Source: Candidatus Buchananbacteria bacterium CG10_big_fil_rev_8_21_14_0_10_33_19
Lineage (GTDB): Bacteria; Patescibacteriota; Patescibacteriia; 2-01-FULL-39-33
DNA length: 64,000 nt
Reading direction: 5' to 3'
Assembly: GCA_002773855.1 (NCBI GenBank)
Contig: PEZY01000012.1
Coordinates: 367,847 to 431,846 of the forward strand
In this document: one piece after another, positions 2,914-27,451 of the stretch
Numbering within the stretch: the first letter of the stretch is position 1
Layout: each line of letters opens with the position of its first letter
Translations under genes and position numbers: made by a program
Notes under the pieces: generated by a model
What the model was told of the DNA's origin: nothing
What the model saw: the letters and a program-made list of their open reading frames with translations, nothing else
Database searches by the model: none

Positions 2914-4698
2914 CTAAATAATTATTAAAATAATCAAAAGACTAATAAACACCAAACTAGATATTATCATCTTAAGATTTTGTTTTTTAAATTGAATAAA
3001 TATATTAATCAAGAGCGTTGCAACAATCAAACCTAACATTATTTTATAAATAGTCGCTGAAATCGAGAATAACCAATTAACATTGCCAGATTTACTATCT
3101 TTAGCAAAAAAATACTGTTGGGTTAAAGAAGCTTTAACTGGTTTAATGCCATCCCATGATACGTCGGTTGTTACTGAATTGCCAGCGTAGTCGGTCGCTG
3201 TAACACTAGGCAAAACCACTGGATTAAATAACTGTTCATTTTCTTGATTAAATATAATAGTGCTGCCAGTCCATTTGGTTGGCAAGCTAATATCTGGCTG
3301 AAGATCTATTTTATAATTACCAAATGAAACACTAGCGTTTTTAGTATCACTATCTAAGAAAACTTCAGCTCTAACTATTTTTTGCTCTTTGTCGTTAGCC
3401 TCTAGGACAAATAGTTTACTGGCTTCAATATTAATAGCTGGTGGAATTTGATCCAATGACACCCTATAAACATCTGAAGACAACGTTTTTGAACCATTAC
3501 TAGCTTCAAATCTTAAATTATTTTCACCTTCACTCAAAGACAAGCTAAATTCAAAATTACCGTCTTTAGAATTAGTTAACTCTAAATATTTTACATCATT
3601 TAAATAGACATTTAGTGTCTTAGCCGATACAGCTAGAACACTAAAATAAGTGGGATTTTCATTAACCACTGAATCATTTTTAGGATAAGACAAGATCGGC
3701 ACAGACAAAGAAGATGCAATAATCTTTTCACCAAAAACTTTTTGACTGGAATCACTAACAACAGTATTTTCATTTGGTTCTCGTGTTACTATATTAGCTA
3801 CCGGAATATCATTAACAGACCCAAAAAACTGAGCTACTAGCGTCGTATCATAACCATTAAACTTACCACTTACCACTCCCACACCAATTTCAGTAAAATC
3901 TGGATCAATTATATTAGCATAATGAGTCTTACTCTGAACCCAAGCATTAACCACGTCAGCCGCATCAACAAAACCCATGGCTAAATTTTCACCAGCCGTG
4001 CTATAAGTATAATTATTTTTCCGTAACCAATAACCTAACCCCTTCTTTTTTGGACTAACATGAGCAAAATACTGTTCAGTTAACATATCCTGAGCTTTTT
4101 CATAAGCGCCTTTATTTAGAACATCATTTTTGATCAATAAGTTTAAACCCAAACTACTTCTAATTTCATTGGTTAAATTTATAATTTTCTCCGCTTGCTT
4201 TTTAGAAACATCTGGCGTCACCCAAGCACTTAACGGTAAACTAACTACAAATATTACAATTAATAGTTTAATAGCAATAGCCGATACTCCATAAGCAAAT
4301 AAACTATTGGTTTTTAAAATTTTTGGTGAAAACTGATTACCTGAATAAGAAAAAAATAAATCCTTCAAATAACCACCACCTCTAGGATTTTTACCTTGTT
4401 TAATAGCCTCACCATCTGGCACACCATCACCATCAGAGTCAGGATTATTAGGATCGGTTTGATAAATTTTTATTTCTTCGTAATCAGAAATACCATCACC
4501 ATCCGAGTCGGGGTTATTGGATTTAGTGCCATAAAGCTTTTCTTGATAATCACTTAGACCATCACCGTCGGTATCAGCCATTATTCGAATTCTGTCTGAT
4601 AATTCTTTTACTTTTAGTTCTAATTTTTTAGACTTTAAATCAATATCACTTTTAGGTGTGACAATTATTTTTTTTCTACTTTTAATAGTCTTTTTCAT
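2914..4698 (-). CDS. Membrane-anchored protein with thrombospondin type-3-like Ca-binding repeats and a CAP/SCP (PR-1, YkwD-like) domain
   Basis: Three D.DGDG..D repeats (DTDGDGLSDYQE, DSDGDGISDYEE, DSDGDGVPDGEA); CAP motifs (HYANIIDPDFTEIGVGVV, GENLAMGF); internal and C-terminal TM helices. Confidence 0.6.
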   Translation of the reverse strand: MKKTIKSRKKIIVTPKSDIDLKSKKLELKVKELSDRIRIMADTDGDGLSDYQEKLYGTKSNNPDSDGDGISDYEEIKIYQTDPNNPDSDGDGVPDGEAIKQGKNPRGGGYLKDLFFSYSGNQFSPKILKTNSLFAYGVSAIAIKLLIVIFVVSLPLSAWVTPDVSKKQAEKIINLTNEIRSSLGLNLLIKNDVLNKGAYEKAQDMLTEQYFAHVSPKKKGLGYWLRKNNYTYSTAGENLAMGFVDAADVVNAWVQSKTHYANIIDPDFTEIGVGVVSGKFNGYDTTLVAQFFGSVNDIPVANIVTREPNENTVVSDSSQKVFGEKIIASSLSVPILSYPKNDSVVNENPTYFSVLAVSAKTLNVYLNDVKYLELTNSKDGNFEFSLSLSEGENNLRFEASNGSKTLSSDVYRVSLDQIPPAINIEASKLFVLEANDKEQKIVRAEVFLDSDTKNASVSFGNYKIDLQPDISLPTKWTGSTIIFNQENEQLFNPVVLPSVTATDYAGNSVTTDVSWDGIKPVKASLTQQYFFAKDSKSGNVNWLFSISATIYKIMLGLIVATLLINIFIQFKKQNLKMIISSLVFISLLIILIII

Positions 4699-4847
4699 GA
4701 TTAGGCCTGTTGAGTAATCATTTTCGTAGCGAAATTTTCATATTTTGAGATAAATTTTTGGAAATTTAACCGAAATATGAAAATTATAGTAGCAAATTAT
4801 TGTTTAATAGACCCCTGTATTATCTCATAAATATTACTCCAAATCAA

Positions 4848-22156: not shown

Positions 22157-23560
22157 TTACTCCGTTTTTCTTTTCTTTAAGACAGCTAATGGCGTCCTAA
22201 ATAAAATCATTAGATCTAATTTGGGACTCCAATTTTCCATATACCAAATATCTAGCCGAATTTCATCATCAAAGTTTAAATCAGATCGTCCAGAAACTTG
22301 AGCCATACCAGTCATACCTGGCTTGATAGTCAAAACTCGCTTTTGATGACTATTATATTTAGCCACTTCCTCAACTTCATGAGGCCTAGGACCGACTAAA
22401 CTCATGCGACCTATTAAAACATTAAATAATTCCGGCAATTCATCAATAGAAAATCTTCTGATTATTTTTCCTACTCTGGTAATCCTCGGATCATCTTTTA
22501 ATTTAATCATCGGAGTACCAGCTCGTAAATTCTCATGAGTGGCCATAAATTCTTCATCAAATCTTTTTTGATGAGCATTTTTTACCATCGAACGAAATTT
22601 AAAATATTTAAATGGCCGGCCAAATTGCCCAATCCGTTGATAAGAAAAAAATATCTGCCCTCTGGAATCTATTAATATTAAAAATGAAATCAGCAGTAGA
22701 AATGGAATAATAAGGGTAATTAAAAAAGTAGAAATAACTACATCAAAAACTCTTTTATAAATTTTGCCCCATCCATCGAGTCTAGTTTTTTTGACCTCAA
22801 TAATCGGTAGACCAGCAATAGTATTGAATTCAAAATTAGTAATAGGCGTGTCAAATATGCCAGCTACAAATTTTAAGGTGATATGATTTAAATAAGAAAA
22901 ATCATTTAACCTGGTCACTTGTTCATTAGGAATACTAGCATCAGCGATTAATATCTCATCAAATTTATCACTCATCAGTAGCTGATAAATTTCTTTTTCA
23001 GACTCTAAACTAAAATCTGAAAATTTGCCAACTACTTTAAAACCAGCCTTCACATCTTTTTTAAAATTTTCTTCTACCTCTTGAGCTAATTTACCACGAC
23101 CAATAATTATCACTCGATGGACTCCTAAGCCATATTTATATAATGAATGTTGAATCAATCTGATCAAGCCACGACTAGTGATAACAAAAATTGTCGAAAA
23201 AATCCAACCAGCAATAATAATAAAACGAGAATCAAACAAATTACGAGAAAAGAAAAATATAAACATCAAAATAGCCACCGCCGTCGATGAACCCAAAATA
23301 ATTTTATAAATTTCATCAATCGGCCGTCTAGTGCCGCGCATTGAATAAAGTCCAGCTATTGCAAAACCAAATATCCAAATTGCCGATATCCCCCAAAGAA
23401 ACCCCAGATATGAATTAAATGACAATTCAAAAATAGCCGGTCTAATCTCTTGAACTGGCTGCCAAAAACGAATGGAATATGAAGCGATGCCAGCTAGAAC
23501 CACTGTTAAATAATCAATGGGCACTAGGCTAGCAGAAATCGCTATTTCTGATCTTTTCAT
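22157..23560 (-). CDS. Polyprenyl-phosphate glycosyl-1-phosphate transferase (WbaP-like bacterial sugar transferase, initiating PGT)
   Basis: N-terminal multi-TM domain; C-terminal PF02397-like motifs (FKFRSM…DELPELFNVLIGRMSLVGPRP). Confidence 0.8.
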   Translation of the reverse strand: MKRSEIAISASLVPIDYLTVVLAGIASYSIRFWQPVQEIRPAIFELSFNSYLGFLWGISAIWIFGFAIAGLYSMRGTRRPIDEIYKIILGSSTAVAILMFIFFFSRNLFDSRFIIIAGWIFSTIFVITSRGLIRLIQHSLYKYGLGVHRVIIIGRGKLAQEVEENFKKDVKAGFKVVGKFSDFSLESEKEIYQLLMSDKFDEILIADASIPNEQVTRLNDFSYLNHITLKFVAGIFDTPITNFEFNTIAGLPIIEVKKTRLDGWGKIYKRVFDVVISTFLITLIIPFLLLISFLILIDSRGQIFFSYQRIGQFGRPFKYFKFRSMVKNAHQKRFDEEFMATHENLRAGTPMIKLKDDPRITRVGKIIRRFSIDELPELFNVLIGRMSLVGPRPHEVEEVAKYNSHQKRVLTIKPGMTGMAQVSGRSDLNFDDEIRLDIWYMENWSPKLDLMILFRTPLAVLKKRKTE

Positions 23561-23565
23561 ACATA

Positions 23566-23641
23566 TATTTTAACACATAATACTACCATATAAAAGCTAA
23601 ATTGTCAATAAAAAAACCCAGTATATAACTGGGTATAATAA
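23566..23641 (-). promoter_or_regulatory. Compact terminator/promoter module (hairpin + T7 + ATTGACAA-17-TAGTAT) between the 189-aa gene and the PGT gene
   Basis: acccagttatatactgggt hairpin + ttttttt + TTGACA then 17 nt then TAGTAT, read on the minus strand. Confidence 0.5.
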
Positions 23642-24211
23642 TTATCCGAAAACAATCAATGAACAAATAAGAGAAATAACTAAAAAAATAACTACATGAC
23701 ATACAGCTGAAACCGTTTCCCAACTAACTTCGCCATGACTAGCTTCCGCAAATTTATACCTTCGCACATAAGAATAACTGCCATCCTCATTTTTTATACG
23801 ATCGGCCTTATGATAATAACTATATGATCTTAAAATAAAAGTACCAATAACTACCCAAACTAAACTACCACCGATTATCGACCAAACATCTTCGCCAACC
23901 ATTTTCCAGATAATAATACCCACCACCATAATACCAACTGGAGTTTTAACAAACTCGTTGACCTGTGTACCTAACTGATCACAGGCTCCAGAAATCGCTG
24001 TACCAATATTGACGCCAATATTTGTCCACTTTTCAGCCTGATCAGCCATCTCCAGTGGTGTAATCTCACCACTAGCGATTTTTTGCGCCTGTAACACTTG
24101 AGCCGCAGTTTCCGGATCAAGCTTATTCAAATCAATACTAATTTTATTACCCTGAGCAAAAATAGTACCACAAATAAGCACAAAAGCCAGAAAAATAGAT
24201 AATCTTTTCAT
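23642..24211 (-). CDS. Secreted/membrane hypothetical protein
   Basis: Signal peptide (MKRLSIFLAFVLICGTIFAQG), two C-terminal TM segments; promoter TTGACA-17-TATGTT at 24250-24311. Confidence 0.45.
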   Translation of the reverse strand: MKRLSIFLAFVLICGTIFAQGNKISIDLNKLDPETAAQVLQAQKIASGEITPLEMADQAEKWTNIGVNIGTAISGACDQLGTQVNEFVKTPVGIMVVGIIIWKMVGEDVWSIIGGSLVWVVIGTFILRSYSYYHKADRIKNEDGSYSYVRRYKFAEASHGEVSWETVSAVCHVVIFLVISLICSLIVFG

Positions 24212-24319
24212 GTTTCTGATTCCTTCTAGTTGAAAGGTGCTACTAGTGCTAAGATTGGCTTAGCACTTTCTGATCTATAACATAAAACAATATTAGAAAA
24301 TTGTCAATAAAAAAAGAGC

Positions 24320-24519
24320 CACCAGCAGCTCTTTGACTTTGTGTCTTGCATTCGGTCGTCCCTACTAACAAGCAAGCTAGCGAATCAATATTAGCTGGAG
24401 GCGAACCTCATAAGCCTATGGTACAACCAGTGTCTACTAGACATGGCGGAGATATTGATTCTACTGGTGACTAGGCCAAGACCTTAGAGAAACGCTTTTG
24501 GCCCAATTACGCTTCAGGT
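24320..24519 (-). ncRNA. Unclassified structured small RNA (~200 nt) with its own promoter and terminator
   Basis: Minus-strand promoter TTGACA(24549-24554)-17-AGTAAT(24526-24531). GC-rich (~50%) transcript with several stable hairpins (GGCCAA…UUGGCC; GAGG-UUCG-CCUC tetraloop; AGCUA…UAGCU). Ends in GAGCUGCUGGUGGCUC + U7. No ORF with an RBS. Confidence 0.4.
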
Positions 24520-24587
24520 AATTTCATTACTGTAAATATAAATTAATTTGTCAATAAAAAAACAGCTTGTCTAAAGCCGTTCTTTTT

Positions 24588-25140
24588 TGTCTAGATAAAT
24601 CTATAAGCCGAATTCTGTTCCTGATGGGTCTGTCTCCAAATAGTCTTTTGTTTATAAGTTTTCACAATTTTGAAATAAATTTTTTAAACAATTTTTAAAG
24701 TTTAGTGGAGCTAAGCTGAAAAAATTTTTATAAAATTTAGACAAAATTTGGAAATTTTAACAAATATGCTATTTGGTGACAGACCCATACAAAGAGATGA
24801 CAATCTATCTGGATTAACTATTACTAGTTAATTCTAGCCCCCTACTATATTTGGGGTTGCACTAAGTAGAGTTTACCACGAACTGCCGGTCACCGACAGC
24901 TGAGTCACGTAGCTTTAGACTAAGGGGATATCCCGTTCTTATTCTAAAACATCATGACACTTTTCACCTTTCATTTGCCGAAGCAAACTAGTATTGTCTC
25001 TGTGGCACTGGTCCTAACTATACCTCGCGATATAGCTGGTGGGCGTTACCCACTACCATGACTTTAATCATAGTGATTAAAGAGTGTTCGGACTTTCCTC
25101 TCCGATTAAAACCGGAGTAGTCATCCAACTTATCTAGACA
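24588..25140 (-). ncRNA. rnpB: RNase P RNA (bacterial type A) with a long AT-rich insertion
   Basis: Ordered conserved elements on the minus strand: P1 (5' gucuagauaag / 3' cuuaucuagac), P3 hairpin, P4 5' strand GAGGAAAGUCCGAAC, GGUAACGCC, AGUGCCACAGAGA, GGUGAAA, GGUAAACUC, and P4 3' strand ACAGAAUUCGGCUUAU with compensatory GG/CC to AA/UU change versus E. coli. A consensus promoter puts the TSS at P1. Confidence 0.8.
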
Positions 25141-25236: not shown

Positions 25237-25641
25237 TTATTTTTTTAACGCTTTATCAATAGCTTCGTTAACTAGTTTATCCGCTTCAACATTAGACTCT
25301 CGAAAAACATGAATAAATTTGATTTTTTTAAATTGCTGAGATAAATTATGCACCTTAACGAATAAGGACGCTAAACCGGCATTTTTTACCTTATACTCAT
25401 GATTCAATTGCTTGACTACCAATTCAGAATCCAAATAACAATCCACTTCCTCAGCTTTAGCTTTTATCGCTTCTTCTAAACCCAAAATTAAAGCCTGGTA
25501 CTCAGCCTGATTATTTGTTGATTCACCAATATATTTTTTAAATAATTTCTTTTTGTCGCCAATTTCTAACACCACACCAATCCCCGCTGGACCAGGATTA
25601 CCTCTAGCGCCACCGTCTGAATGCAAAATTACCTTAGTCAT
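25237..25641 (-). CDS. rnhA: Ribonuclease HI
   Basis: MTKVILHSDGGARGNPGPAGIGVVLE… with RNase H type-1 catalytic Asp/Glu pattern; about 134 aa. Confidence 0.85.
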   Translation of the reverse strand: MTKVILHSDGGARGNPGPAGIGVVLEIGDKKKLFKKYIGESTNNQAEYQALILGLEEAIKAKAEEVDCYLDSELVVKQLNHEYKVKNAGLASLFVKVHNLSQQFKKIKFIHVFRESNVEADKLVNEAIDKALKK

Positions 25642-25723: not shown

Positions 25724-27451
25724 CTACTTAGCACTTTCCATTAAATCTACTATTTTTAGCTGTAATTCTTTATTACCGTTCCATTCATTAACTCCTATTT
25801 CAAAAACGACATCAATATTATCACCGACATTTAATTTGGCACACCAATCACCAAAAGAAAAACCAATCATTTTATGAATGACTGGATGATTAGTTTGACT
25901 AACCATCGCCCGTAAATGCTTGCCATCACTACCCACTGTTTGAACTTGTTCAATTTTTAAATTCCTAATCAAAAACAATGGCATATCATTAGCCTCGCCA
26001 AATGGTTCAAATTTTTCTAACTTATAATAAAAATTCCAATCAATATCTGCTAGTTCAATTTCGGCTTCAATTTTTAATATTTCTCGAAGATCAGCATCTT
26101 TTAAAGCCTCCGTAGCAATAGCTACCATTTTTTTATGAAAATTATCTAAATTTTCTTTACCAATAATCGTAAAACCACAAGCCTGTGGATGGCCACCAAA
26201 TTTTTCTAAATACTCACTACATTCACTTAAAGCACTAGTAATATCAAAACCATTTACACTTCGGCCAGAACCCACATATTTATCACCATCCTGAGATATA
26301 ATAATAGCTGGTAAATTATATTTATCACTAATTCTACCAGCCACCAAACCTACCACCCCCGGATGCCAACTTTCACCGGATGCCAACAATAATTTATCAT
26401 CTTTTATCTGACTAACGATTTTGTCAGCTTCTTTCATCATTGTCACTGTTATAGATTGTCGTCTAGTGTTTTCTTCTTCTAATTTTTGTACTAATTTATC
26501 AGATTCATCATCATTATCAGAAATAAGTAATTCAAAGGCTAGTGAAGCGTGATTTATTCGTCCAGCCGCATTTAGTCGTGGCACTATGCGCCAGCCAATA
26601 TATTGAGTATCCAGCTTACCGCTAAAATGATTAAGCTTTTCAACTATTTTCATAATACCCTTGCGTCTAGTTTTATCTAGAACAATCAAGCCATATTTTA
26701 CAAAAATTCGGTTTTCACCCAAAAGCGGCATAATATCTCCCACTGTGGCAATCGCTACTAAATCAAGCAGCCATTTATCAAAGCCAAGCGGTAATTTATT
26801 AGCCCATACAAACTCATCTTGAGTTTTGAGTAGTCCTTGAACGACCTTAAAAGCTACACCAGCACCACATAATTTTCGAAAAGGATACTGACAATCATTG
26901 AGTGATGGATTAATAATAGCATAAGCGTCTAACGGCAATTCCTGTGGCTCCTTATGGTGGTCGGTGACAATTATATCAACCTTATTTTTTTTAAACTCAG
27001 ATACTTCTTCTTTATTAGAAATACCACAATCGACAGTGACTACTAATTTATAACCACTATCACTTATTTCTTGAACCGCTGTCATATTCAAACCATAGCC
27101 CTCACCTTCTCGAAAAGGAATTCTAATGTCAACATCAGCGCCTAACTTTTTAAGCGCACTATAAATGACCGCCGTTGAACAAACACCATCAGCATCATAA
27201 TCACCATAAATCATGATTTTTTCTTTATCCTTAATAGCCTGAAGTATTCTAGTAGTCGCCTTTTTCATATCTGCAAACAAAAAAGGATCAGCAACTTGCT
27301 CATCATAATTAGGACTTAAAAAATCATTAATTGATTTTTTATCATCAAAACCTCGATTATGTAATAACTGTAAAATTATTTTGTTTTCAGATGGTAAAAT
27401 TTTCACTAAATCTCCACCCATAACCTCAGATACCTGCCATTTTTTATGCAT
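25724..27451 (-). CDS. recJ: Single-stranded-DNA-specific exonuclease RecJ
   Basis: DHH motifs (IMIYGDYDADGV; VTDHH), DHHA1 region, C-terminal OB-like domain. Confidence 0.8.
   Translation of the reverse strand: MHKKWQVSEVMGGDLVKILPSENKIILQLLHNRGFDDKKSINDFLSPNYDEQVADPFLFADMKKATTRILQAIKDKEKIMIYGDYDADGVCSTAVIYSALKKLGADVDIRIPFREGEGYGLNMTAVQEISDSGYKLVVTVDCGISNKEEVSEFKKNKVDIIVTDHHKEPQELPLDAYAIINPSLNDCQYPFRKLCGAGVAFKVVQGLLKTQDEFVWANKLPLGFDKWLLDLVAIATVGDIMPLLGENRIFVKYGLIVLDKTRRKGIMKIVEKLNHFSGKLDTQYIGWRIVPRLNAAGRINHASLAFELLISDNDDESDKLVQKLEEENTRRQSITVTMMKEADKIVSQIKDDKLLLASGESWHPGVVGLVAGRISDKYNLPAIIISQDGDKYVGSGRSVNGFDITSALSECSEYLEKFGGHPQACGFTIIGKENLDNFHKKMVAIATEALKDADLREILKIEAEIELADIDWNFYYKLEKFEPFGEANDMPLFLIRNLKIEQVQTVGSDGKHLRAMVSQTNHPVIHKMIGFSFGDWCAKLNVGDNIDVVFEIGVNEWNGNKELQLKIVDLMESAK

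What the first reader, a model, noticed from the sequence alone, without database searches (positions are those of the whole stretch)
24320..24580. Independently transcribed ~200-nt GC-rich structured RNA of unknown class
A consensus-like minus-strand promoter (TTGACA-17-AGTAAT) starts a transcript at about 24519 that runs to a weak GC hairpin plus U7 at about 24320. The segment is about 50% GC against roughly 30% background. It has no ORF with an RBS. It folds into several strong local helices, including a GAGG-UUCG-CCUC tetraloop hairpin and GGCCAA…UUGGCC. It sits between rnpB and a secreted-protein gene. I could not match it by eye to SRP RNA domain IV, tmRNA or 6S. It could be a divergent housekeeping RNA, a riboswitch-type leader for the downstream 189-aa gene, or a novel sRNA.
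Basis: partly seen in the sequence, partly recalled or inferred. Interest (0 to 1): 0.62.

Follow-up and report, generated by a model that had tools for sequence, protein, structure and literature searches.

The report
Orphan structured small RNA beside rnpB
A roughly 215-nucleotide RNA gene sits just after the RNase P RNA gene of a tiny groundwater bacterium (Candidatus Falkowbacteria); it is conserved, folds into a pseudoknot plus a multi-helix domain backed by compensatory mutations, matches no known RNA family, and its function is unknown.

Summary
Minus strand ~24524-24309 carries a 216-nt segment of 44.9% GC (window mean 34.3%). It lies between a TTGACA-17-AGTAAT promoter-like site and a hairpin followed by seven U.

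Full-length homologues exist in two related Falkowbacteria-like contigs (L117, L131). A 5' fragment is in a more distant one (L015), and the last 16 nt are in a fifth genome (L130). In every case the RNA lies directly downstream of rnpB, while the next gene differs. It is therefore not a leader of the 189-aa gene.

Pairwise RNA identity is 86-87%, against 53-61% at third codon positions of the neighbouring gene. All 14 variable columns inside helices P2, P3a, P3b and P4 keep pairing, and 5 pairs changed on both sides. The UUCG loop is not conserved.

Rfam gives nothing even at E<=10, and ARAGORN gives nothing. Four close relatives lack the RNA at this site, so it is either dispensable or relocated.

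Verdict: a genuine new, narrowly distributed structured RNA family. It most likely acts in trans as a stable, protein-binding RNA. That function is inferred, not shown. Interest is moderate.

The parts
24549..24554 (-). -35 hexamer TTGACA of the RNA's own promoter
   Evidence: Read directly. TTGAC is aligned and invariant in window, L117 and L015, and is also present in L131. It is part of the repeated junction T7-ATTGACAA.
24526..24531 (-). -10 hexamer AGTAAT, 17 nt after the -35; imperfect (G at position 2)
   Evidence: the scanner did not call it. Homologous positions read AATAAT in L117 and L131 and TAAAAT in L015.
24309..24524 (-). The RNA gene (216 nt as modelled). The 5' end is predicted near 24519-24524 and the 3' end within the U7 tract.
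   Evidence: Model R1 scores 250 bits here, 267.5 in L117 and 267.9 in L131. Pairwise identity is 86-87%, against 53-61% at codon position 3 of the neighbouring gene. GC is 44.9%.
24509..24515 (-). Pseudoknot stem S1, 5' strand GAAGCGU (RNA positions 10-16)
   Evidence: It pairs with GCGUUUC in all four sequences. There is one wobble change (window) and one both-sided change, U.G to A-U (L015).
24489..24495 (-). Pseudoknot stem S1, 3' strand GCGUUUC (RNA positions 30-36), lying inside the loop of P2
   Evidence: CGUUUC is invariant in all four sequences.
24473..24504 (-). P2 (pseudoknot stem S2): GGGCCAA (21-27) paired with UUGGCCU (46-52)
   Evidence: C-G changes to U-A in L117 (compensatory). 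All cells are paired.
24462..24472 (-). P3a 5' strand AGUCACCAGUA (53-63)
   Evidence: 11 bp with positions 198-208. It shows one compensatory change (C-G to U-A in L117) and two one-sided changes that keep pairing.
24317..24327 (-). P3a 3' strand UGCUGGUGGCU (198-208). It overlaps the loop and 3' arm of the local terminator hairpin.
24453..24461 (-). P3b 5' strand GAAUCAAUA (64-72)
   Evidence: 9 bp with positions 135-143. One pair runs A-U, then G.U, then G-C across window, L117 and L131.
24382..24390 (-). P3b 3' strand UAUUGAUUC (135-143)
24427..24446 (-). P4 hairpin (79-98), with a variable loop
   Evidence: Two pairs changed on both sides and one on one side. The bulged C is deleted in relatives.
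24393..24416 (-). P5 hairpin (109-132): GGC..GAGG-loop-CCUC.AGCU.
   Evidence: The stems are invariant, so they carry no covariation information. The loop is UUCG, UUUA or CUUG in the three homologues.
24328..24381 (-). Highly conserved 54-nt segment (144-197) between the 3' strands of P3b and P3a. It may form an extra arm: P6 (147-151 with 194-198) and P7 (153-157 with 176-180).
   Evidence: Only 6 variable columns. P6 and P7 are consistent with all three sequences but essentially invariant. The MFE hairpin at 144-161 is broken in L117.
24309..24334 (-). Local intrinsic-terminator hairpin AAAGAGC-UGCUGGUG-GCUCUUU plus U7. It is mutually exclusive with P3a and with tentative P6.
   Evidence: The sequence is invariant in the three homologues apart from loop positions that co-vary with P3a.
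24279..24307 (-). Separate promoter (TTGACA-17-TATGTT) of the downstream 189-aa ORF, starting 2 nt after the RNA's U tract
   Evidence: The junction T7-ATTGACAA is repeated at 24549-24560, 24302-24313 and 23603-23614.
24561..25136 (-). Context: rnpB and its terminator, immediately upstream of the RNA in every genome that has the RNA
   Evidence: Rfam RF00010, 126 bits at 24757-25136. The true 3' end (ACAGAAUUCGGCUUAU) and terminator at about 24561-24620 were read. The same rnpB-RNA order appears in L117, L015 and L131.

Best explanation
This is a genuine, separately transcribed gene for a stable, highly structured RNA of about 215 nt. It founds a new family that is so far confined to a small clade of Candidatus Falkowbacteria (Patescibacteria/CPR).

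Proposed working: a sigma-70-type promoter fires about 70 nt after the rnpB terminator. The 5' 52 nt fold into an H-type pseudoknot (S1 of 7 bp, S2/P2 of 7 bp). The pseudoknot abuts a long-range helix, P3a, which pairs the region just after it with the extreme 3' end. P3a encloses P3b, a three-way junction carrying P4 and P5, and a strongly conserved 54-nt segment.

Transcription stops at the U7 tract. This could happen through the small local hairpin or through P3a itself. In the finished RNA the terminator sequence is absorbed into P3a, leaving only a short U tail.

The whole length is conserved about as strongly as rnpB, not just a short seed, and the fold is multi-junction. I therefore infer that it acts in trans as a folded RNA that binds a protein partner (an RNP scaffold or decoy). 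I think a base-pairing riboregulator or a cis-acting leader is less likely.

Shown here: existence, conservation, strand, helices P2, P3a, P3b and P4, the pseudoknot, and independence from the downstream gene. Inferred: transcription itself, the transcript ends, and the protein-binding trans-acting role.
For: Homologues and synteny. The rnpB-RNA order is found in five genomes, with a different downstream gene each time:
- window: a 189-aa ORF;
- L117: the sugar transferase;
- L131 and L130: a 174-aa ORF;
- L015: unknown, because the contig ends.

Selection. RNA identity is 86-87%, against 90% for rnpB and 53-61% at codon position 3 of the adjacent sugar transferase.

Structure.
- RNAalifold predicts 62 pairs, 5 of them with both-sided changes.
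- 98.9% of cells are paired, against 20-44% when the partners are slid by 1-3 columns.
- 5 covarying pairs are seen, against 0-1 in the slid controls, and only 9 of 500 shuffles reach the observed value.
- All 14 variable columns in P2, P3a, P3b and P4 preserve pairing.
- Pseudoknot stem S1 is intact in all four sequences, including divergent L015, with a U.G to A-U switch.

Strand. Numerous G.U pairs would become C.A on the other strand, which fixes the minus strand as the functional one.

Promoter. The -35 and the spacing are conserved, and relatives have better -10 hexamers.

No known family. Rfam gives nothing at the gathering threshold or at E<=10, and ARAGORN gives nothing.

No conserved ORF.

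No antisense target. No predicted target in the 64-kb window stands out above shuffled controls.
Against: - There are no expression data of any kind.
- Only three full-length sequences and one fragment exist, all fairly close (86-87% identity), so the covariation statistics are thin.
- The window's own -10 hexamer lacks the critical A at position 2.
- Four close relatives lack the RNA at this locus (L004, L118, L126, L132). This argues against an essential role, unless a copy lies elsewhere in those genomes.
- No partner protein is identified.
- The protein-binding role rests only on the pattern of conservation and the architecture.
Confidence: 0.55

Rival explanations
1. A trans-acting base-pairing sRNA. 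A conserved single-stranded stretch, for example within the 54-nt segment 24328-24381, pairs with mRNA targets. The rest of the RNA is a stabilising scaffold with a terminator.
For: It has its own promoter and an intrinsic terminator with a U tail. A 20-nt invariant stretch, AGCUUGCUUGUUAGUAGGGA, has no supported pairing.
Against: Duplex scans of the conserved unpaired segments against both strands of the 64-kb window gave nothing notable. For the one segment tested against shuffles (143-170), the best hit (-29.1 kcal/mol) fell within the range of 12 shuffles (-26 to -32). Conservation extends over the whole 216 nt and through four helices, which is unusual for seed-type sRNAs. Only 64 kb of the genome could be scanned.
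Confidence: 0.15
2. A cis-acting leader, riboswitch or attenuator. The pseudoknot domain senses a ligand or factor and shifts the balance between P3a/P6 and the local terminator hairpin. This would control read-through into the gene downstream.
For: P3a and tentative P6 are mutually exclusive with the terminator hairpin. The pseudoknot abuts P3a directly. In L117 the sugar-transferase start codon lies only 34 nt after the RNA.
Against: The downstream gene differs in each genome: a 189-aa ORF, a 174-aa ORF or the sugar transferase. In L015 the 190-aa homologue lies upstream of rnpB. A separate TTGACA promoter starts 2 nt after the U tract. Orthologous sugar-transferase genes in L004, L126 and L132 have no such leader. 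No riboswitch family is matched. P3a is itself followed by the U tract, so forming it would not obviously prevent termination.
Confidence: 0.07
3. A highly diverged housekeeping RNA that Rfam models fail to recognise in CPR, such as an SRP RNA with an Alu-like 5' domain or a 6S-like RNA.
For: CPR RNase P RNAs are known to fall below Rfam thresholds and to need manual refolding (PMC8172020). The topology loosely recalls Bacillus/archaeal-type SRP RNA: 5' elements that interact through their loops, then a long helix closed by the 3' end with two hairpins at its tip. It is adjacent to another stable-RNA gene.
Against: No SRP, 6S or tmRNA hit appears even at E<=10 on a 224-nt slice, and ARAGORN finds nothing. 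There is no GNAR tetraloop: the apical loops vary (UUCG/UUUA/CUUG and UAGUA/GACGU/GCCUU). No AGCA motif occurs anywhere. The covariation-supported pseudoknot and junctions are incompatible with a 6S rod that has a two-sided central bubble. Four close relatives have no copy at this locus.
Confidence: 0.07
4. A passenger or relic of cassette-like rearrangement in a hypervariable spot next to rnpB, or a self-processing (catalytic) RNA of a mobile unit, with no host function.
For: Presence and absence are interleaved among close relatives. The module is bounded by identical T7-ATTGACAA junctions, which occur only at these three places in 64 kb. The neighbouring ORFs are orphans that vary from genome to genome. 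rnpB itself is invaded by a MITE-like element and by GIY-YIG ORFs in this clade.
Against: There is strong purifying selection and there are compensatory changes. The rnpB linkage is retained even in divergent L015. There is a single copy, with no second copy in the window or in any fetched locus. No blastn hit appears in the phage or plasmid collections and no real hit in viral contigs. No known ribozyme family is matched. The flanking repeats are duplicated promoters, which explains loss by recombination without invoking mobility.
Confidence: 0.08

Closest known systems
Orphan structured bacterial ncRNA families found by comparative genomics of GC-rich intergenic regions (for example the raiA motif RNA and other Breaker/Weinberg 'motif' RNAs; own knowledge plus PMC11109978 and PMC8632094, listed but not read)
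   Same: A GC-rich island in an AT-rich intergenic region. A length of about 200 nt, several covarying helices, its own promoter and terminator, and no known function.
   Different: No sequence or structure match to any of them in Rfam 15. The distribution seen so far is restricted to a few Falkowbacteria, with a fixed position after rnpB.
Bacillus/archaeal-type SRP RNA (Alu-type 5' domain plus helix 5 closed by the 3' end, with S-domain hairpins at the tip); compared from my own knowledge of the family
   Same: Overall topology. 5' elements interact through their loops (a pseudoknot). They are followed directly by a long helix whose other strand is the 3' end. Two hairpins branch at the distal end.
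   Different: No GNAR tetraloop, no symmetric-loop AGCA/GGA motif, variable apical loops and no UGUNR U-turn in L015. No hit to RF00169 or RF01854 at E<=10. Absent from close relatives at this locus.
6S RNA (ssrS)
   Same: A size of about 200 nt, a stand-alone stable-RNA gene, poorly conserved in sequence between phyla, and often missed by models.
   Different: 6S is a rod with a large two-sided central bubble. Here covariation supports a 5' pseudoknot and branched junctions, and the 5' strand has no unpaired bubble opposite the 54-nt segment.
Terminator-embedded closing helices of stable sRNAs, and riboswitch expression platforms
   Same: The 3' terminator sequence can adopt two mutually exclusive pairings: a local hairpin or the long-range helix P3a.
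   Different: No conserved regulated gene lies downstream, and a separate promoter follows at once. The long-range alternative is itself followed by the U tract, so it does not act as a classical antiterminator.

Membership tests
SRP RNA (RF00169 / RF01854) | Helix 8 with a GNAR tetraloop and the conserved symmetric-loop nucleotides (…AGCA… opposite …GG…) | tested here: not met
   The apical loops are UUCG/UUUA/CUUG (P5) and UAGUA/GACGU/GCCUU (P4). 'AGCA' occurs nowhere in the three sequences.
SRP RNA (RF00169 / RF01854) | Match to the Rfam covariance model | tested here: not met
   No hit at the gathering threshold or at E<=10.
6S RNA (RF00013 and relatives) | Rod-like fold: a closing stem formed by the 5' and 3' ends, a large two-sided central bubble and a terminal stem | tested here: not met
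   The 5' 52 nt form a pseudoknot that is not paired with the 3' end. P3a continues directly into P3b on the 5' strand. The distal part is a three-way junction. No Rfam hit.
tmRNA | A tRNA-like domain with a T arm and a 3' CCA-type acceptor, plus a tag-peptide reading frame | tested here: not met
   ARAGORN finds only tRNA-Gln in the window. No Rfam hit.
Riboswitch / cis-regulatory leader | Conserved association with the gene immediately downstream, which it regulates | tested here: not met
   The downstream gene is a 189-aa ORF (window), the sugar transferase (L117) or a 174-aa ORF (L131/L130). In L015 the 190-aa gene lies upstream of rnpB.
Riboswitch / cis-regulatory leader | No independent promoter between the element and the regulated ORF | tested here: not met
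   TTGACA-17-TATGTT starts 2 nt after the U tract. An equivalent promoter-like sequence (-35 TTGAC directly after the U tract) follows the RNA in L117 and L131.
Riboswitch / cis-regulatory leader | Match to a known aptamer class | tested here: not met
   Rfam 15 at E<=10 gives none.
Independent structured sRNA gene (generic kind) | Own promoter and intrinsic terminator | tested here: met
   The -35 and spacing are conserved in four genomes. The -10 hexamer is imperfect in the window and better in relatives. A hairpin plus U7 follows. These are sequence predictions only.
Independent structured sRNA gene (generic kind) | Conserved secondary structure supported by compensatory substitutions | tested here: met
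   5 pairs changed on both sides, with no disruption in P2, P3a, P3b or P4. Slid controls give 0-1, and 9 of 500 shuffles reach the observed value. The pseudoknot stem is kept in L015. Caveat: only 3-4 sequences.
Independent structured sRNA gene (generic kind) | A discrete transcript detected in cells | not testable with these tools
   No transcriptome data are available here.
Mobile-element or phage-borne RNA (for example the omega/HEARO, bridge or retron RNAs) | Adjacency to the cognate protein gene (TnpB/IscB, IS110 recombinase or reverse transcriptase), or multiple copies | tested here: not met
   The neighbours are RNase H, rnpB, orphan ORFs and a sugar transferase. There is a single copy in the window and the loci. 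No hits in the phage, plasmid or viral collections.

The most novel reading that the evidence does not exclude
The RNA is the RNA subunit of a lineage-specific ribonucleoprotein, or a new catalytic RNA, that is functionally tied to RNase P or stable-RNA metabolism in ultra-small CPR bacteria. Its constant position directly after rnpB would then reflect co-function rather than accident, and its pseudoknot would be the active or recognition site.
Probability: 0.08. Interest if true: 0.8.

Novelty: new member of a known kind. Interest (0 to 1): 0.42.

Why it matters
CPR/Patescibacteria have genomes of about 1 Mb with very little non-coding DNA, and almost nothing is known about their non-coding RNAs beyond rRNA, tRNA and RNase P RNA. 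A 215-nt RNA kept under selection as strong as that on rnpB, with a pseudoknot and two junctions, would be one of the few lineage-specific structured RNAs described in this radiation.

It would give a concrete handle (covariance model R1) for finding more members and a partner protein. Its on/off distribution among close relatives, between duplicated promoter junctions, also shows how small stable-RNA genes are gained or lost in these genomes.

The family is narrow and its function is unknown, so the present value is that of a solid new candidate rather than a surprise.

Tried and rejected
- **Metagenome pattern scan.** I scanned with GGGCCRAAN{1,3}CGTTTCTCN{5,11}GGCC. All were chance matches, mostly in GC-rich DNA, and not even the window's own JGI contigs were among them.
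- **Viral-contig scans.** Three motifs gave only chance coding matches.
- **GTDB scan with RNase H.** Only one of 11 loci (L004) had rnpB nearby, and it lacks the RNA.
- **Homologues of the 189-aa protein.** Only one exists among 5.8 billion proteins. It nevertheless led to L015.
- **Phage and plasmid collections.** blastn found nothing.
- **Antisense target search in the window.** Nothing rose above shuffled controls.
- **Pfam and PADLOC on the variable neighbouring ORFs.** No informative hits.
- **P1 hairpin (AAUUAC/GUAAUU).** Rejected in favour of the pseudoknot, because it is broken in L131 and absent in L015.
- **MFE hairpin GCUAGC/GUUAGU.** Not supported; it has a mismatch in L117.
- **Coding hypothesis.** Rejected, because there are only short TTG-start ORFs and frame-breaking indels.
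- **Opposite-strand RNA.** Rejected, because of the many G.U pairs.
- **P6, P7 and the tertiary pair GGUC:GACC.** Kept only as tentative. Thermodynamics does not favour them, and with three sequences a chance match is likely.
Full report
**1. What is at the coordinates**

On the minus strand the gene order is RecJ (25724-27451), an RNase H-family gene (25237-25641), rnpB, the candidate, a 189-aa orphan membrane ORF (23642-24211) and a sugar transferase (22157-23560).

Rfam calls rnpB at 24757-25136 (RF00010, 126 bits). The real 3' end (…ACAGAAUUCGGCUUAU) and its terminator lie at about 24561-24620, because a 161-nt insertion interrupts the 3' part of the gene.

The -10 hexamer has G where the key A should be, so the consensus scanner did not list this promoter.

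The segment ends in AAAGAGC-UGCUGGUG-GCUCUUU followed by U7 (24334-24309), which the scanner did list as terminator-like.

The 216 nt between these signals are 44.9% GC, against a window mean of 34.3% and flanking spacers of 24-32%. Only 3.4% of 216-nt windows are as GC-rich.

The organism is a Candidatus Falkowbacteria (Patescibacteria/CPR) genome recovered repeatedly from metagenomes.

**2. Known families**

- Rfam 15 finds nothing in the segment at the gathering threshold. It also finds nothing relevant at E<=10, whether 501 nt or only 224 nt are submitted, and nothing in the L131 homologue.
- ARAGORN finds no tmRNA.
- One caveat applies: CPR stable RNAs are known to escape Rfam thresholds (PMC8172020). 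I therefore also tested defining features by hand (section 6).

**3. Homologues and context**

The downstream 189-aa protein has a single homologue among 5.8 billion proteins. Its 1.5-kb contig (L015) has the order 190-aa gene, rnpB, terminator, promoter (TTGACT-17-TAAAAT), and then the first ~120 nt of a diverged copy of the candidate, cut by the contig end.

Walking through close homologues of RNase H and the sugar transferase gave further copies:
- L117 has the order RNase H, rnpB, RNA, sugar transferase. It has no 189-aa gene.
- L131 has the order rnpB terminator, RNA, a 174-aa orphan ORF, sugar transferase.
- L130 holds the last 16 nt of the RNA at a contig start, in a genome whose rnpB is on L122.

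At four equally close loci rnpB is followed directly by a promoter and either the sugar transferase or a 91-aa ORF, with no room for the RNA. These are L004, L118, L126 and L132.

Three conclusions follow:
- The RNA is linked to the 3' side of rnpB.
- It is not linked to any particular downstream gene.
- It is present or absent among close relatives.

This refutes the idea that it is a leader of the 189-aa gene.

**4. Selection and structure**

Pairwise identity of the RNA is 86-87%. That compares with 90% for the rnpB core, about 76-82% for the sugar-transferase DNA, and only 53-61% at its third codon positions. The RNA is therefore under purifying selection along its whole length.

RNAalifold on the three full sequences (alignment A3) predicts 62 pairs, 5 of which changed on both sides while keeping the pair. 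Counting on that structure gives the following:
- 98.9% of cells are paired, against 20-44% when partners are slid by 1-3 columns.
- 5 covarying pairs are seen, against 0-1 in the slid controls.
- 9 of 500 column shuffles reach the observed values.

Of 45 variable columns, the 14 that fall in P2, P3a, P3b and P4 all preserve pairing. The changes are:
- P2: GGGCCAA/UUGGCCU becomes GGGCUAA/UUAGCCU in L117.
- P3a: AGUCACCAGUA/UGCUGGUGGCU becomes AGCCAUCAGUA/UGCUGAUGGCU in L117 and AGCCACCAGUA/UACUGGUGGCU in L131.
- P3b: one pair runs A-U, then G.U, then G-C across the three sequences.
- P4: the closing pair C-G becomes U-A, and an inner pair U-A becomes G.U.

The many G.U pairs fix the minus strand as the functional one.

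Two predicted hairpins are not supported:
- The 5' hairpin AAUUAC/GUAAUU is mismatched in L131 and absent in L015.
- GCUAGC/GUUAGU is mismatched in L117.

Instead, GAARCGU (positions 10-16) pairs with GCGUUUC (30-36) inside the P2 loop in all four sequences. This includes a U.G to A-U switch in L015 and an A-U to G.U change in the window. With P2 this makes an H-type pseudoknot whose loops of 4-5, 1-2 and 8-10 nt are sterically reasonable. These motifs are also the parts best conserved in divergent L015.

Its loop is UUCG, UUUA or CUUG, so it is not a conserved UUCG tetraloop.

A 54-nt stretch (144-197) is almost invariant. It may form an additional arm (P6 and P7) and a 4-bp tertiary contact with the pseudoknot loop. 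The evidence for these is weak, and I keep them as tentative.

MFE z-scores are -2.47, -1.87 and -2.89. These are supportive but would not be convincing alone.

**5. The 3' end**

The 3' strand of P3a (198-208) is the loop plus the first bases of the 3' arm of the local terminator hairpin. The two structures are therefore mutually exclusive. P3a is the one that covaries, and it appears in the MFE of all three sequences.

The simplest reading is inference, not a shown result. The small hairpin, or P3a itself (which also abuts the U tract), terminates transcription. The finished RNA then locks its 3' end into P3a, leaving a short U tail.

**6. What it is not**

- **SRP RNA.** The topology is loosely reminiscent: loop-interacting 5' elements, then a long helix closed by the 3' end with two distal hairpins. 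But there is no GNAR loop, no AGCA symmetric-loop motif, the apical loops vary, and no model hit appears.
- **6S RNA.** The supported pseudoknot and junctions are incompatible with a rod that has a two-sided bubble.
- **tmRNA.** ARAGORN and Rfam are both negative.
- **Riboswitch or leader.** The downstream genes vary, an independent promoter starts 2 nt after the U tract, and orthologous genes lack the element.
- **Mobile or phage RNA.** It is single copy. No cognate protein lies nearby. Nothing turns up in the phage, plasmid or viral collections.
- **Coding sequence.** Only TTG-start ORFs of 23-42 aa are present, and 1-nt indels between homologues break the frames.

**7. Presence and absence**

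The 12-mer TTTTTATTGACA, within the T7-ATTGACAA junction, occurs exactly three times in 64 kb. All three are on the minus strand, at the junctions rnpB|RNA, RNA|189-aa ORF and 189-aa ORF|sugar transferase.

The sequences that follow each copy are paralogous promoters. Relatives without the RNA have a single such junction, whose promoter resembles the RNA's promoter in L131.

Loss by recombination between duplicated promoter-terminator junctions is therefore sufficient to explain the patchy distribution, as is gain by the reverse route. The region between rnpB and the sugar transferase is a small hypervariable spot filled with orphan ORFs.

**8. Most likely mechanism**

Shown:
- a conserved, strand-specific, structured element with its own promoter-like and terminator-like signals;
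- independence from the downstream gene.

Inferred:
- It is transcribed as a discrete, stable RNA of about 215 nt.
- It works in trans as a folded RNA, most likely by binding a protein.

The second inference rests on three points. Conservation covers the whole molecule at a level similar to rnpB. The architecture is complex (a pseudoknot plus junctions). No antisense target stands out.

I put about 0.9 on 'real structured RNA gene' and about 0.55 on the full statement including the trans-acting, protein-binding role. The rivals are a base-pairing sRNA (0.15), a cassette relic or ribozyme (0.08), an attenuator or leader (0.07) and a diverged housekeeping RNA (0.07).

**9. Novelty and score**

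This is a new family of a familiar kind, the orphan bacterial structured small RNA. It is confined, as far as I could see, to a handful of Falkowbacteria. It is worth a covariance-model survey and a transcript check, but it is not a major surprise. Interest is 0.42.

The main limitations are that only 3-4 sequences are available, that there are no expression data, and that my one metagenome-wide scan was lost to a cap on chance matches.

Noticed in passing
window 24626-24786 (minus strand, inside rnpB); also L122 1451-1612 and L126 9379-9540: A 161-nt, 22% GC, self-complementary element sits inside the RNase P RNA gene. It has 18-nt terminal inverted repeats (GGGTCTGTCACCAAATAG … CTATTTGGAGACAGACCC). 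In the window it replaces a small GCAA hairpin near the 3' end of rnpB, whereas in L122 and L126 it sits at a different rnpB position. It looks like a MITE-like insertion tolerated as a helix extension. No other copy exists in the 64-kb window. Because of it, the Rfam hit (24757-25136) stops about 170 nt before the true 3' end of rnpB (about 24590).
   Followed up: partly
L004 about 4478-4735 and L118 3783-4046 (relatives, inside rnpB): An 85-87-aa GIY-YIG (PF01541) ORF is inserted in the 5' part of rnpB, between the P1 5' strand and the GAGGAAAGUCCG core, in two relatives. It resembles a homing-endonuclease-type invasion of a stable-RNA gene.
   Followed up: no
window 24549-24560, 24302-24313, 23603-23614 (minus strand): The junction T7-ATTGACAA (a terminator U tract running into a -35 box) is repeated identically at three consecutive gene boundaries and nowhere else in 64 kb. 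The promoters that follow are paralogous. Relatives have one, two or three such modules, so this is a small cassette-like hypervariable spot between rnpB and the sugar-transferase gene.
   Followed up: partly
window 23642-24211 (minus strand): This is a 189-aa orphan protein that, judged by eye from its sequence, has an N-terminal signal-like segment and C-terminal hydrophobic stretches. It has a single homologue (57% identity) among 5.8 billion proteins and no Pfam or PADLOC match. In that homologue's contig the gene lies upstream of rnpB rather than downstream of the RNA. The corresponding slot holds unrelated orphan ORFs in L131 (174 aa, Cys/His-rich) and L118 (91 aa).
   Followed up: partly
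window 24212-24278 (minus strand): The 5' UTR of the 189-aa ORF contains a perfect 8-bp hairpin (GUGCUAAG-CCAAU-CUUAGCAC) between its promoter and the Shine-Dalgarno-like AGGAA. Its function was not examined.
   Followed up: no
L117 4125-4160: In L117 the sugar-transferase start codon lies only about 6 nt after the predicted -10 hexamer (TATGAT) of its promoter. This suggests a leaderless or nearly leaderless mRNA in that genome.
   Followed up: no
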